Positions 17,592-17,702 of a stretch of 57,555 bases of DNA are shown piece after piece. Made by a program: the position numbers and the translations under genes. The stretch lies in the IMG/VR virus record IMGVR_UViG_3300025723_001287, positions 1-57,555 of that record; one strand, written 5' to 3'. The stretch is from a virus (taxonomy: Duplodnaviria > Caudoviricetes). The notes under the pieces were generated by a model. That model was not told where the DNA came from. It saw only the letters and a list, made by a program, of their open reading frames with translations, and did not search any database. Each line of letters starts with the position of its first letter. Position 1 is the first letter of the stretch.

Positions 17592-17702
17592 TGGTACAGA
17601 CGGAAGGATTCGAACCTTCAAAGTCGCTCTAAGAGCTAGACCCTTGCCCTCCGTTCGCCGAAGCTACTAGGAGGAGGTTTACCAGATTACACTCACGTCT
17701 GC
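17592..17702 (-). ncRNA. tRNA-like RNA (111 nt) with atypical anticodon arm and long variable arm
   Basis: Acceptor GCAGACG/CGTCTGT-A-CCA, T-arm GAAGG-TTCGAAT-CCTTC, D-loop AATCTGGTA; central CCTCC-TAGTA-GC-TTCG-GC-GAAC-GGAGG; second hairpin AGGGTC...GACTTT. Confidence 0.8.

What the first reader, a model, noticed from the sequence alone, without database searches (positions are those of the whole stretch)
17592..17702. tRNA-shaped RNA whose anticodon arm is a UUCG-capped mimic of the 23S rRNA sarcin-ricin loop
Seen: intact acceptor stem, encoded CCA, T-arm and D-loop GG, and its own TTGACA-17-TACAAT promoter. In place of a 7-nt anticodon loop it has CUCCUAGUA-GCUUCGGC-GAACGGAG (17649-17673), followed by a ~27-nt extra hairpin. 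Known (recalled): bacterial helix 95 reads CUCCUAGUA-CGAGAG-GACCGGAG. The AGUA/GA(A) bulged-G motif is a recognition element for elongation factors and SRL nucleases (alpha-sarcin; mycobacterial VapC20/VapC26 also cut the SRL), and the GAGA tetraloop is the attacked site. Inference: a stable, non-cleavable SRL decoy displayed on a tRNA scaffold (anti-defence sponge or translation-factor ligand). Alternative: tRNA-Thr(AGT) with a 12-nt insertion at position 37/38.
Basis: partly seen in the sequence, partly recalled or inferred. Interest (0 to 1): 0.85.

Follow-up and report, generated by a model that had tools for sequence, protein, structure and literature searches.

The report
Anticodon-less leucine-type tRNA mimic of phages
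This is a real, strongly conserved phage gene for a tRNA-shaped RNA that cannot read codons; the ribosome-like motif in its long arm is only one of many interchangeable arm designs, so it is probably not a mimic of the ribosome's sarcin-ricin loop.

Summary
On the minus strand, 17702 to 17592, lies a 111-nt tRNA-shaped RNA behind a TTGACA-17-TACAAT promoter. It has a 7-bp acceptor stem, a D loop with GG, a 27-nt extra arm, a canonical T arm and A73-CCA. The anticodon arm is replaced by CUCCUAGUA-GCUUCGGC-GAACGGAG.

It belongs to a family: 116 distinct RNAs in 178 viral-contig loci, from one clade of roughly 350-kb freshwater phages. There is one copy per genome, always at the head of the same operon: secreted HExxH protein, p177, IF-1. 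Covariation supports the fold (95.7% of cells paired, 12 pairs with double changes, 0 of 500 shuffles as good).

The body is leucine-type. A73 is present in 116 of 116, and the D loop matches the phages' own tRNA-Leu.

The SRL-decoy reading is not supported.
- Only 48 of 116 members carry AGUA/GAA; the rest have many other arm designs, including plain UUCG-capped helices.
- The CUCC/GGAG stem is shared with arms that lack the motif.
- The GAGA tetraloop is absent.
- E. coli 23S nt 233-264 matches the architecture about as well.

My best reading is a non-decoding, probably LeuRS-chargeable tRNA-Leu mimic that works through its body. Its function is unknown.

This scan had already noted the family on other DNA (e1-6013626, e1-5893035).

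The parts
17709..17737 (-). Sigma-70-type promoter TTGACA-17-TACAAT. The -10 box ends 6 nt before G1, so transcription should start at or next to the mature 5' end.
   Evidence: 11 of 12 consensus positions. In homologs the consensus is CATTGACA-N17-TATAAT, and the -10 box starts at -12 in 76 of 99 distinct upstream-plus-RNA sequences.
17592..17702 (-). Whole 111-nt tRNA-shaped RNA (G1 at 17702, CCA at 17594-17592).
   Evidence: Family of 116 distinct RNAs. Covariation.
17696..17702 (-). Acceptor stem, 5' strand (GCAGACG). It pairs with 17596-17602.
   Evidence: Across 116 distinct RNAs, 5 of 7 pairs show compensatory pair types, for example 3:70 A-U 78, G-C 33, G-U 5, and 5:68 A-U 91, U-A 18.
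17677..17695 (-). UGA linker and D arm (GUGU-AAUCUGGU-AAAC) with G18 G19. The D stem is weak.
   Evidence: The D stem is paired in only 74.5% of cells. In relatives the D loop is GGAAUUGGUAGAC, the same as in the phages' own tRNA-Leu(UAG).
17647..17675 (-). Anticodon-arm substitute: stem UCCUCC/GGAGGG, U.C, bulged-G module AGUA/GAA, and cap GC-UUCG-GC. There is no 7-nt loop and no anticodon.
   Evidence: The module is invariant in the 46 RNAs of its subfamily while 14 different self-complementary caps occur. It is absent from 68 of 116 family members.
17620..17646 (-). Long extra (variable) arm, 27 nt: two stacked helices (5 and 4 bp) separated by a 2-nt bulge, with a UUA triloop.
   Evidence: Helix 5: 97.3% of cells paired, and 6 of 9 pairs change on both sides.
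17603..17619 (-). T arm GAAGG-UUCGAAU-CCUUC.
   Evidence: The T stem is 100% paired, with four pair types at 50:64. The T loop is UUCGAAU in 85 of 90.
17592..17602 (-). Acceptor 3' strand CGUCUGU, discriminator A73 (17595) and encoded CCA (17594-17592).
   Evidence: A73 in 116 of 116. The 3' end reads ACCA in 97 of 99 and ACCG in 2 of 99.
17568..17591 (-). A/U-rich trailer (UUUUAUUAAC...) and ribosome-binding site of the first gene. There is no terminator, so the RNA and the operon are one transcript.
   Evidence: One search found no terminator-like site on the minus strand here. Trailers begin UUUUUA, UUUUAA or UUUUAU in 50 of 99.
17238..17567 (-). First gene of the operon: 109-aa secreted protein with an invariant HExxHxxGxxH motif and 4 Cys.
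   Evidence: tblastn hit 119 of 146 loci.
16708..17241 (-). Second gene, p177: conserved, with no known family or fold. It directly follows the RNA where the first gene is missing.
16315..16533 (-). Phage-encoded translation initiation factor IF-1 (72 aa) in the same operon.
   Evidence: PF01176 at 3e-18. TIGR00008 infA at 86.8 bits against a cut-off of 61.15.

Best explanation
The element is a gene for a non-decoding, leucine-type (class II) tRNA mimic. It is conserved in one clade of roughly 350-kb uncultured freshwater phages.

How it is made. It is transcribed by host RNA polymerase from a near-consensus sigma-70 promoter, starting at or next to G1, as the first 111 nt of an operon transcript (secreted HExxH protein, p177, IF-1 and further genes). 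I infer that the host's tRNA 3'-end pathway, cutting in the A/U-rich trailer just after the encoded CCA, releases it as a stable L-shaped RNA.

What it keeps. It retains what E. coli LeuRS is reported to need: A73, G18 G19, A20a, A15:U48 and the D/T-loop elbow. It has no anticodon loop. It can therefore probably be bound, and probably leucylated, like tRNA-Leu, but it cannot read a codon.

The arm. The arm that replaces the anticodon arm is a closed helix whose sequence, length and internal motif are free to change. The bulged-G AGUA/GAA form in this window is the commonest of many alternatives.

What it does. The selected function therefore resides in the tRNA body. My preferred but unproven role is a competitor or decoy for a host protein that recognises tRNA-Leu or class II tRNA bodies, such as a tRNA-directed defence enzyme or LeuRS itself.

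Shown: the structure, the family, its conservation, the genomic context and the variability of the arm. Inferred: processing, charging and the decoy role.
For: Fold and family
- 116 distinct RNAs in 178 loci.
- Covariation on the 46 bulged-G members: 95.7% of cells paired, 12 pairs with changes on both sides, 0 of 500 shuffles as high, at most 49.6% paired when partners are slid.
- T stem 100% paired in the 90 distinct RNAs. Compensatory pair types at 5 of 7 acceptor positions across all 116.

Selection on the RNA
- In 13 pairs of loci compared, most with scaffolds differing by at most 3 nt, the flanking DNA was mostly only 50-92% identical.
- No ORF of at least 40 aa overlaps the element.

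Leucine type
- A73 in 116 of 116.
- The D region of relatives L074 and L003 scores best against the phages' own tRNA-Leu(UAG) among 76 distinct phage tRNAs; the shared stretch is GGAAUUGGUAGAC. The phages' tRNA-Ser genes have G73.
- U at the position before the T stem (U48) is invariant, and AA is present at positions 14-15.
- PMC9976931, 'Leucine identity' passages read: in E. coli, A73, A15-U48, G18G19, A20a and the D/T-loop contacts matter. The anticodon and the long arm do not. tRNA-Leu variants lacking the anticodon arm are still charged.

Not a decoder
- Arms include 18-nt perfect hairpins with UUCG or UUUG loops and 14-nt hairpins.
- ARAGORN makes no call.

Expression signals
- Promoter with 11 of 12 consensus positions, 6 nt before G1, conserved in homologs.
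- No terminator before the operon.

Copy number and placement
- One copy per genome. In the two near-complete genomes it lies about 19 to 29 kb from the nearest gene of the tRNA array.
- Synteny: the rSAM gene is divergent; then come the RNA, the secreted protein, p177 and IF-1. tblastn hits in 112, 119, 124 and 107 of 146 loci respectively.

Phage-only
- 0 of 12 pattern hits in 185,579 prokaryote species genomes are real.

No phage-encoded charging machinery found
- No class Ia synthetase (PF00133) and no CCA-adding enzyme (PF01743) in 4 phage records, 2 of them at least 94% complete. Host enzymes would have to handle the RNA.
Against: - There is no expression, end-mapping or charging data. 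No RNA sequencing run holding this phage was listed.
- The D stem is degenerate in every register (74.5% of cells paired), and an extra A follows G9. The core may therefore differ from that of a real tRNA-Leu.
- For the window's own RNA the D-region comparison is not clearly leucine: the top scorers are tRNA-Gly, an odd 92-nt 'tRNA-Ile' call, and tRNA-Leu.
- The extra arm (27 nt, two helices) is longer than in the phages' tRNA-Leu genes.
- The constant position at the head of one operon fits a cis role as well.
- The bulged-G module is invariant across 14 cap variants. In that subfamily the arm is therefore not wholly free.
- Nothing identifies the proposed host partner.
- The neighbours gave no clue: p177 has no family or fold match.
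Confidence: 0.55

Rival explanations
1. Cis-acting 5' element. The tRNA shape serves the operon mRNA rather than acting as a free RNA. It could be a base-paired 5' end that protects the transcript, or a processing 'punctuation' signal that sets the 5' end and the level of the downstream message.
For: - It always lies between the promoter and the first gene, with no terminator.
- The operon behind it is the same in more than 100 loci.
- Where the first gene is missing, the RNA abuts the next one (for example L028).
- By the abstract listed (PMC2190699), E. coli RNase E cuts 1-3 nt after encoded CCA. That would separate the RNA from the message.
Against: - A processing or stabilising signal needs only an acceptor/T-arm minihelix. 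It would not explain an invariant A73 (116 of 116), a Leu-type D loop, an invariant U48, or a covarying 27-nt extra arm.
- The 5' end is set by the promoter, so no RNase P step is needed.
- The scaffold is conserved far more strongly than the adjacent leader and coding DNA.
Confidence: 0.17
2. Amino-acid carrier. The mimic is leucylated and hands leucine to a non-ribosomal acceptor, either a host Leu/Phe-tRNA protein transferase or an unrecognised phage enzyme, for example one in the neighbouring radical SAM cluster. Lacking an anticodon, it stays out of translation.
For: - The E. coli Leu identity set is retained and the CCA is encoded.
- It is conserved next to a cluster of radical SAM genes (PF04055 on 17731-18699 and 20942-22090; rSAM hit in 112 of 146 loci).
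- Precedent, recalled and not checked here: the non-proteinogenic tRNA-Gly species of Staphylococcus.
Against: - None of the 4 phage records matches Leu_Phe_trans (PF03588, controls rang) or FemAB (PF02388, controls rang).
- The Lant_dehydr_N search (PF04738) was blank, but its controls rang nowhere, so that result is uninformative.
- The T arm is fully canonical. Nothing would keep a charged mimic away from EF-Tu.
Confidence: 0.1
3. The arm is a non-cleavable copy of the 23S sarcin-ricin loop, or more broadly an rRNA-motif bait, displayed on a tRNA scaffold to bind a translation GTPase or to soak up an SRL-directed nuclease.
For: - Compared with E. coli helix 95, 9 of 9 nt match on the 5' side and 7 of 8 on the 3' side.
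- In 46 distinct RNAs the AGUA/GAAC module is invariant while the cap changes, with G-C to A-U covariation at the first cap pair (24 against 20).
- The module sits where an anticodon loop would be, and the RNA is driven by a strong promoter.
Against: - 68 of 116 members lack the module, including members whose scaffolds differ by 0-1 nt.
- CUCC/GGAG is the common arm base of the family.
- E. coli 23S nt 233-264 has the same capped AGUA-GC...GC-GAAC layout. The likeness is to a recurrent module.
Confidence: 0.07
4. Decaying or intron-bearing ordinary tRNA: a tRNA-Thr(AGU) with an insertion, or a pseudogene.
For: If the cap is ignored, the window's arm contains the letters CUAGUA, which could be read as a loop with an AGU anticodon.
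Against: - Homologs have closed helices with 4-nt loops.
- The scaffold is under strong purifying selection, with compensatory changes.
- The promoter is conserved.
- The caps are stable UUCG or GNRA hairpins of 8-15 nt, not known intron types.
Confidence: 0.01

Closest known systems
Bacterial and phage tRNA-Leu (class II tRNA), including these phages' own tRNA-Leu(UAG/UAA/CAA) genes
   Same: - 7-bp acceptor stem, A73, encoded CCA.
- D loop GGAAUUGGUAGAC-like, with G18 G19 and A20a.
- U48 present.
- Canonical T arm and a long extra arm.
   Different: - No anticodon loop at all.
- The arm is a closed helix of 14-40 nt.
- The D stem is degenerate, and an extra A follows G9.
- The extra arm is longer (27 nt, two helices).
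- It is a single gene about 19 to 29 kb from the nearest gene of the tRNA array in the two near-complete genomes, with its own promoter, at the head of a protein operon.
- ARAGORN and Rfam (RF00005) do not accept it.
Sarcin-ricin loop, helix 95 of 23S rRNA (E. coli 2649-2671)
   Same: - Stem CUCC/GGAG.
- U opposite C.
- Bulged-G module: AGUA opposite GA(A/C).
- 16 of 17 flanking nucleotides are identical.
   Different: - The C-GAGA-G tip is replaced by GC-UUCG-GC here and by 13 other caps in relatives.
- The module is absent from 68 of 116 relatives.
- The RNA context is a tRNA body, not a ribosome.
Hairpin at E. coli 23S rRNA nt 233-264 (domain I; I recall it as helix 13 but did not check the number) and the bulged-G / loop E / S-turn module in general
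   Same: The layout matches: C-rich strand, AGUA, GC, loop, GC, GAAC, G-rich strand. In other words, a bulged-G module directly capped by a short hairpin.
   Different: - The loop is GGCGA rather than UUCG.
- The stem is CCCC/GGGG rather than CUCC/GGAG.
- It is part of rRNA tertiary structure.
Non-decoding or non-canonical tRNA-like RNAs known from the literature (all recalled, none read here): non-proteinogenic tRNA-Gly of Staphylococcus, phage T4 stable RNAs C and D, tmRNA, bacterial Y-RNA-like YrlA, and engineered 'tRNA scaffolds' in which the anticodon arm is replaced by a cargo RNA
   Same: A tRNA body is used for stability and for handling by tRNA enzymes while decoding is abolished. The engineered scaffolds replace exactly the same arm.
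   Different: - Leucine type with a long extra arm.
- A naturally hypervariable arm.
- A fixed place at the 5' end of an operon transcript.
- No tag reading frame, and ARAGORN calls no tmRNA.
- No Rfam family reaches threshold.

Membership tests
Canonical tRNA (Rfam RF00005 / ARAGORN) | Cloverleaf with a 5-bp anticodon stem and a 7-nt loop; score above the model's cut-off | tested here: not met
   ARAGORN finds 5 tRNAs in the window but not this element. Rfam at gathering thresholds reports none here. In E-value mode the hit scores 22.4 bits against 29, on a partial alternative register.
Canonical tRNA (Rfam RF00005 / ARAGORN) | 7-bp acceptor stem, T arm with a UUCGAAU-type loop, G18 G19, discriminator plus CCA | tested here: met
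tRNA-Leu (bacterial class II) | Discriminator A73 | tested here: met
   116 of 116 distinct RNAs.
tRNA-Leu (bacterial class II) | Hinge elements reported for E. coli LeuRS: A15:U48, G18 G19, A20a, and the D/T-loop contacts (PMC9976931) | tested here: met
   The letters are present and invariant in the 46-sequence alignment (AA at 14-15, GGUA, U before the T stem, UUCGAAU). This is sequence only; the geometry was not tested.
tRNA-Leu (bacterial class II) | Leucine anticodon and decoding | tested here: not met
   No anticodon loop is present. Arms are closed helices.
tRNA-Leu (bacterial class II) | Aminoacylation by LeuRS | not testable with these tools
   Needs a biochemical assay.
Sarcin-ricin loop (23S helix 95) mimic | Bulged-G module AGUA / GA(A/C) on a CUCC/GGAG stem | tested here: met
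   Window 17649-17673 compared with E. coli 23S 2649-2671.
Sarcin-ricin loop (23S helix 95) mimic | GAGA tetraloop closed by C-G, the universally conserved tip | tested here: not met
Relatives have 13 other caps, and none of the 14 printed caps reads C-GAGA-G.
Sarcin-ricin loop (23S helix 95) mimic | Conservation of the mimicking motif across homologs | tested here: not met
   48 of 116 carry it. Of the 31 distinct sequences in the loci new to the arm-independent search, 3 carry it.
Bulged-G (loop E / S-turn) RNA module | Consensus 5'-AGUA-3' opposite 5'-GAA-3', flanked by Watson-Crick pairs | tested here: met
   Invariant in 46 of 46 subfamily members. The flanking cap pair covaries: G-C 24, A-U 20. 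The three-dimensional S-turn itself is not testable here.
tmRNA | tRNA-Ala-like ends plus a tag reading frame | tested here: not met
   ARAGORN calls no tmRNA. There is no Rfam tmRNA hit. The RNA is 111 nt with no internal ORF.
Any curated Rfam family (4227 models) | Score at or above the gathering cut-off | tested here: not met

The most novel reading that the evidence does not exclude
The tRNA-Leu body is a display scaffold, and the arm is a swappable bait. The phage population keeps many alternative arm modules on an otherwise frozen, chargeable tRNA body because each arm binds or evades a different variable host factor, for instance ribosome- or tRNA-directed defence nucleases. Modules seen include: bulged-G S-turns like those of 23S rRNA, 3x3 A-rich internal loops, GNRA- or UUCG-capped rods, and loops such as GACCCCC and UGUAACAAAC. 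That would make this a natural RNA 'aptamer display' locus under diversifying selection. The SRL-like arm in this window would then be a true rRNA-motif decoy for one such factor.
Probability: 0.1. Interest if true: 0.85.

Novelty: new variant of a known kind. Interest (0 to 1): 0.6.

Why it matters
Phage tRNA genes are usually explained by codon supply or, more recently, by escape from tRNA-cutting defences. Here a whole clade of giant phages keeps a tRNA-Leu body almost letter for letter while discarding the part that reads codons. It expresses that RNA from a near-consensus promoter in front of an operon that includes a phage IF-1.

That points to a job for the tRNA body itself: being bound, charged or attacked in place of host tRNA-Leu. 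It also offers a natural counterpart of the laboratory 'tRNA scaffold' trick.

If the function is found, it would add a new class of phage-host interaction at the level of tRNA handling. The hypervariable arm would be a ready-made readout of the selection involved.

For the scan, the case shows that a striking match to a famous rRNA loop can arise from a recurrent RNA module sitting on a family-wide stem.

Tried and rejected
Cultured relatives. blastn (distant mode) of 17500-17800 against 50,697 phage records found nothing. tblastn of p177 against the same records found nothing.

Prokaryote genomes. The D-arm pattern gave 12 hits in genome contigs, all chance matches in unrelated coding DNA.

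Expression. One search for sequencing runs listed 20 holders, none on record as RNA: no RNA holder listed.

Neighbours as clues.
- p177 (16708-17241) has no Pfam, PHROG or NCBIfam family and no usable Atlas hit.
- Its confident model (pLDDT 85.9) has no Foldseek PDB match at E <= 0.001. The best VIA Z score is 3.6.
- The secreted protein's model (pLDDT 89.9) has no Foldseek PDB match at E <= 0.001. Its protease reading rests on the motif alone.

Aminoacyl-transfer enzymes, synthetase and CCA enzyme in 4 phage records. PF03588, PF02388, PF04738, PF00133 and PF01743 each matched 0 of 4. For PF04738 the controls rang nowhere, so that blank says nothing.

rRNA mimicry by the other arms. For the 51 distinct arms, the longest exact words shared with E. 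coli 16S, 23S and 5S were 7-10 nt. By my own estimate that is about what chance gives. The exceptions are the 9-mer of helix 95 and a 13-mer of the GCAA-capped arm at 23S 1865-1877. I did not run a shuffle control for these.

Recent cassette swapping. I asked whether the arms were exchanged recently between near-identical genomes. In the pairs compared, flanking DNA was mostly 50-92% identical. Long divergence with a frozen scaffold explains the pattern as well as recombination does.

Literature. Five full-text searches turned up no description of this family.
- PMC10690425 (passages read) reports 8,495 candidate structured RNAs from IMG/VR, including tRNA-like ones. Its supplementary tables, which I could not open, might list this RNA.
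- PMC9976931: passages read.
- PMC2190699: only the start of the abstract in the search listing.

No covariance model was built. BLAST already showed one copy per genome, and pattern scans gave enough members.

Sampling caveat. The first collection scan demanded the motif, so its 51 true hits are biased towards the bulged-G form. The shares 48 of 116 and 3 of 31 are therefore sample values, not population frequencies.
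Full report
WHAT IS THERE

The feature lies on the minus strand of the window. Read 5' to 3' from 17702 to 17592, it is a 111-nt RNA:
- acceptor strand GCAGACG
- UGA linker
- D arm GUGU-AAUCUGGU-AAAC
- one C
- six-pair stem UCCUCC/GGAGGG, which encloses U-AGUA, the cap GC-UUCG-GC, and GAA-C
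- 27-nt extra arm of two stacked helices with a UUA triloop
- T arm GAAGG-UUCGAAU-CCUUC
- acceptor strand CGUCUGU
- A73 and CCA

A TTGACA-17-TACAAT promoter (11 of 12 consensus positions) ends 6 nt before G1. No terminator-like site separates the RNA from the ATG at 17567. No ORF of 40 aa or more overlaps the element.

ARAGORN finds the window's five ordinary tRNAs at 55.8-57.4 kb but not this element. Rfam finds nothing here at gathering thresholds. In E-value mode it gives only a 22.4-bit tRNA hit on a partial alternative register.

The single-sequence fold is unremarkable, z = -0.69. The case for a structured RNA therefore rests on comparison with homologs.

E. coli K-12 rrlH reads CTCCTAGTACGAGAGGACCGGAG at 23S positions 2649-2671. 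The window reads CTCCTAGTAGCTTCGGCGAACGGAG at 17649-17673.

THE FAMILY

The window is an IMG/VR virus record that CheckV rates 16% complete. It has no relative among 50,697 deposited phage genomes. I ran three scans of IMG/VR contigs.
- Scan 1 demanded the SRL-like motif. It gave 54 loci, of which 51 are homologs and 3 (L012, L016, L035) are chance hits. This set is biased by construction.
- Scan 2 was anchored on the D arm and acceptor only.
- Scan 3 was anchored on the D loop and the T arm.

Pooled, I hold 116 distinct full-length RNAs from 178 loci.

On the 46 distinct RNAs that carry the bulged-G motif (alignment A1), the cloverleaf I wrote down is well supported:
- 95.7% of cells are paired, against 87.1% in shuffles (0 of 500 as high) and at most 49.6% when the 3' partners are slid.
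- 12 of 32 pairs change on both sides: three in the acceptor stem, six in the extra arm, two in the T stem and one in the cap.

Over all 116 RNAs, five of the seven acceptor pairs show compensatory pair types. In the 90 RNAs the T stem is paired in 90 of 90. Only the D stem is weak, at 74.5%.

The scaffold is far better conserved than its surroundings. In 13 pairs of loci compared, most with scaffolds differing by at most 3 nt, the flanking DNA was mostly 50-92% identical. This is a functional RNA gene, not a relic.

WHERE IT SITS

All loci are syntenic. A radical SAM gene is transcribed divergently. Then come the promoter, the RNA, a roughly 109-aa secreted protein, a conserved 177-aa protein (p177), sometimes a 55-aa MazE/AbrB-like protein, a 72-aa IF-1, and further genes. 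tblastn with the window's proteins hit 112 (rSAM), 119 (secreted protein), 124 (p177) and 107 (IF-1) of 146 loci.

IF-1 is secure: PF01176 at 3e-18, and TIGR00008 at 86.8 bits against a cut-off of 61.15.

Where the secreted-protein gene is missing, the RNA is followed directly by p177. By my reading, that applies to 10 of 134 instances. Four further instances ran off the contig.

Two near-complete relatives (345 and 356 kb, 94% and 96% complete) have about 30 tRNA genes each, most of them in one array. They hold exactly one copy of this RNA, about 19 to 29 kb from the nearest gene of that array.

The promoter is conserved. The consensus is CATTGACA-N17-TATAAT, with the -10 box at -12 in 76 of 99 distinct sequences. 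The trailer after CCA is A/U-rich.

The D-arm pattern has no true match in one genome each of 185,579 prokaryote species (12 hits, 0 real). The RNA therefore looks confined to this clade of large uncultured phages. The DNA runs that hold it are freshwater metagenomes.

WHAT KIND OF tRNA BODY

The discriminator is A in 116 of 116. The phages' own class II tRNAs are Leu and Tyr (A73) and Ser (G73).

I compared the D region of three family members with that of 76 distinct tRNAs from these phages.
- For relatives L074 and L003 the best matches are tRNA-Leu(UAG). The shared stretch is GGAAUUGGUAGAC, after one extra A in the mimic.
- For the window's own copy the ranking is less clear: tRNA-Gly, an odd 92-nt call, and tRNA-Leu have similar scores.

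AA at positions 14-15, GG at 18-19, the following UA, and the U just before the T stem are invariant.

A review of tRNA identity (PMC9976931, 'Leucine identity' passages read) states the following for E. coli:
- A73, the A15-U48 pair, G18G19, A20a and the D/T-loop contacts are what LeuRS needs.
- The anticodon and the long arm are not identity elements.
- tRNA-Leu variants without the anticodon arm are still charged.

The mimic therefore keeps what that review lists and lacks only what is dispensable. That it is charged remains an inference.

The phages encode no class Ia synthetase and no CCA-adding enzyme that I could detect (0 of 4 records each). Host enzymes would have to act on the RNA.

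THE ARM, AND THE SRL IDEA

The arm is the one part of the RNA that is not conserved. Among the 90 distinct RNAs from the first two scans there are 51 distinct arms, 14 to 40 nt long, and all fold as closed hairpins. The types are:
- the bulged-G form, [U/A]-AGUA ... GAA-C, with 14 different caps: GC-UUCG-GC, GC-GCAA-GC, GC-GUAA-GC, AGC-GAAA-GCC, AGCU-GACCCCC-AGCU and variants
- perfect helices capped by UUCG, UUUG or UUAG
- 14-nt hairpins with a CUUG loop
- stems with an A-rich 3x3 internal loop
- long stems with UGUAACAAAC-type loops
- others

The third scan added a sub-clade with acceptor GUGGUCG. Its arms are built around CGUUGNGAAACG, and none of them carries the motif.

Counts of the bulged-G form:
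- 48 of 116 overall
- 31 of 83 instances in the loci that were new in the second scan
- 3 of the 31 distinct sequences in the loci that were new in the third scan

RNAs whose scaffolds differ by 0-1 nt carry unrelated arms. L010 and L102, L020 and L062, L046 and L063, and L076 and L090 are examples.

The stem CCUCC/GGAGG, which supplies 8 of the 16 letters shared with helix 95, is the usual base of the arm whatever sits on top. The remaining shared letters are the consensus of the bulged-G (loop E, S-turn) module. That module recurs in rRNA. E. coli 23S nt 233-264 reads cccccAGTAGCGGCGAGCGAAcgggg, the same capped AGUA-GC...GC-GAAC layout.

The GAGA tip is absent.

Within its subfamily the module is invariant while the cap is replaced and its first pair covaries (G-C 24, A-U 20). 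So the module is not junk. I give a specific SRL or rRNA-bait role about 7%, and a broader 'swappable bait' reading about 10%.

HOW IT MOST LIKELY WORKS

Shown:
- a conserved, promoter-driven, single-copy, anticodon-less class II tRNA body with a free arm, at the 5' end of an operon transcript.

Inferred:
- Transcription starts at G1, so no RNase P step is needed.
- The host's tRNA 3'-end machinery cuts in the A/U-rich trailer. The abstract of PMC2190699, seen only in the listing, says E. coli RNase E cuts 1-3 nt after encoded CCA. This would release a stable RNA.
- LeuRS and other tRNA-handling proteins bind the RNA, but it cannot decode.

A purely cis role (5' protection or punctuation) would not require A73, the Leu-type hinge or the covarying extra arm, so I rank it second (0.17).

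A role as leucine donor found no support in the phage genomes. There is no Leu/Phe-transferase and no FemAB homolog. The LanB search was uninformative. I give it 0.10.

My preferred guess, a competitor or decoy for a host factor that recognises tRNA-Leu bodies, is not demonstrated by anything here.

COMPARISON AND NOVELTY

The RNA is not a member of any Rfam family and fails the tRNA detectors. It works like, and surely descends from, tRNA-Leu. It resembles known non-decoding tRNA-like RNAs only in principle.

Five full-text searches found no description of the family. A catalogue of candidate viral structured RNAs (PMC10690425, passages read) might contain it in supplementary tables that I could not open.

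This scan had already met the family on other DNA.
- Note e1-6013626 called it an anticodon-less leucine-type mimic with a plain capped hairpin, next to the radical SAM cluster.
- Note e1-5893035 placed one at the head of the IF-1 operon.

I re-derived both points independently.

What this window adds:
- The arm is hypervariable across the family.
- The SRL-like look of this copy comes from a recurrent module on a common stem.

VERDICT

- Observation: confirmed.
- Interpretation: partly supported. The tRNA-scaffold, non-decoding part is right. The SRL decoy and the tRNA-Thr alternative are not.
- Novelty: new variant of a known kind.
- Interest: 0.6.

Noticed in passing
window 17238-17567 (-), and homologs in 119 of 146 loci: The first gene behind the RNA encodes a roughly 109-aa protein with a signal peptide, four conserved Cys and an invariant GHExxHCxxGxxH at its C-terminus. 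That is the metzincin-type zinc-binding motif on a domain of only about 85 aa. It is the fastest-evolving gene of the operon, at 35-57% identity to the window's copy. The model is confident (pLDDT 89.9), but Foldseek gave no PDB match at E <= 0.001, so the protease reading rests on the motif alone.
   Followed up: partly
window 16315-16533 (-): Phage-encoded translation initiation factor IF-1 (72 aa; TIGR00008 at 86.8 bits against a cut-off of 61.15), in the same operon as the tRNA mimic. tblastn hit it in 107 of 146 loci.
   Followed up: partly
window 16708-17241 (-): p177 is a highly conserved Cys/Trp-rich protein that always lies next to the RNA or the secreted protein. The model is confident (pLDDT 85.9, pTM 0.82). 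It has no Pfam, PHROG or NCBIfam family, no Foldseek PDB match, a best VIA Z score of 3.6, and no homolog in deposited phages. Two loci (L108, L111) have an in-frame stop in it.
   Followed up: partly
window 17670-17681 and 17647-17652 (-): The 5' strand of the arm together with the preceding letters reads ACCUCCUCC, and the 3' strand reads GGAGGG. By recall these are the letters of the 16S anti-Shine-Dalgarno tail paired with a perfect Shine-Dalgarno sequence. Most, but not all, family members keep CCUCC/GGAGG. I did not test whether this means anything.
   Followed up: no
L005, L008, L022 and other loci with the GC-GCAA-GC cap; E. coli 23S 1865-1877 in L193: The GCAA-capped bulged-G arm shares a 13-nt exact word (UAGCGCAAGCGAA) with E. 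coli 23S rRNA at 1865-1877. A different arm type shares a 10-mer (CGAAGCUCUU); by my reading of the 23S sequence printed that 10-mer sits at 1874-1883, but its position was not searched for. By my rough estimate the 13-mer is borderline and the 10-mers are at chance level. No shuffle control was run.
   Followed up: partly
L195-L231 (for example L195:6095-6170): A second sub-clade of the family has acceptor GUGGUCG/CGACCAC and arms built around CGUUGNGAAACG, a GNRA-capped hairpin on an internal loop. None of them has the bulged-G motif.
   Followed up: partly
L155:1833-1924 (-) in phage record G001: ARAGORN calls a 92-nt 'tRNA-Ile(UAU)' with a very long extra region in the tRNA array of the 345-kb relative. 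Rfam also gives a weak 83-nt tRNA hit (33.4 bits) at G001:275655-275737 that ARAGORN does not call. Both are odd tRNAs that were not examined.
   Followed up: no
window 17731-28498: A cluster of radical SAM genes is transcribed divergently from the RNA's promoter region (PF04055 on 17731-18699 and 20942-22090). The first of them is conserved next to the RNA: tblastn hit it in 112 of 146 loci. The scan note e1-6294144 covers this cluster.
   Followed up: no
window 16526-16693 (-): A 55-aa protein with a weak MazE/AbrB-type (SpoVT-AbrB) match (PF04014, 3.9e-4, below the cut-off; phrog_661 at 7.8e-15) lies between p177 and IF-1. tblastn hit it in only 46 of 146 loci.
   Followed up: no
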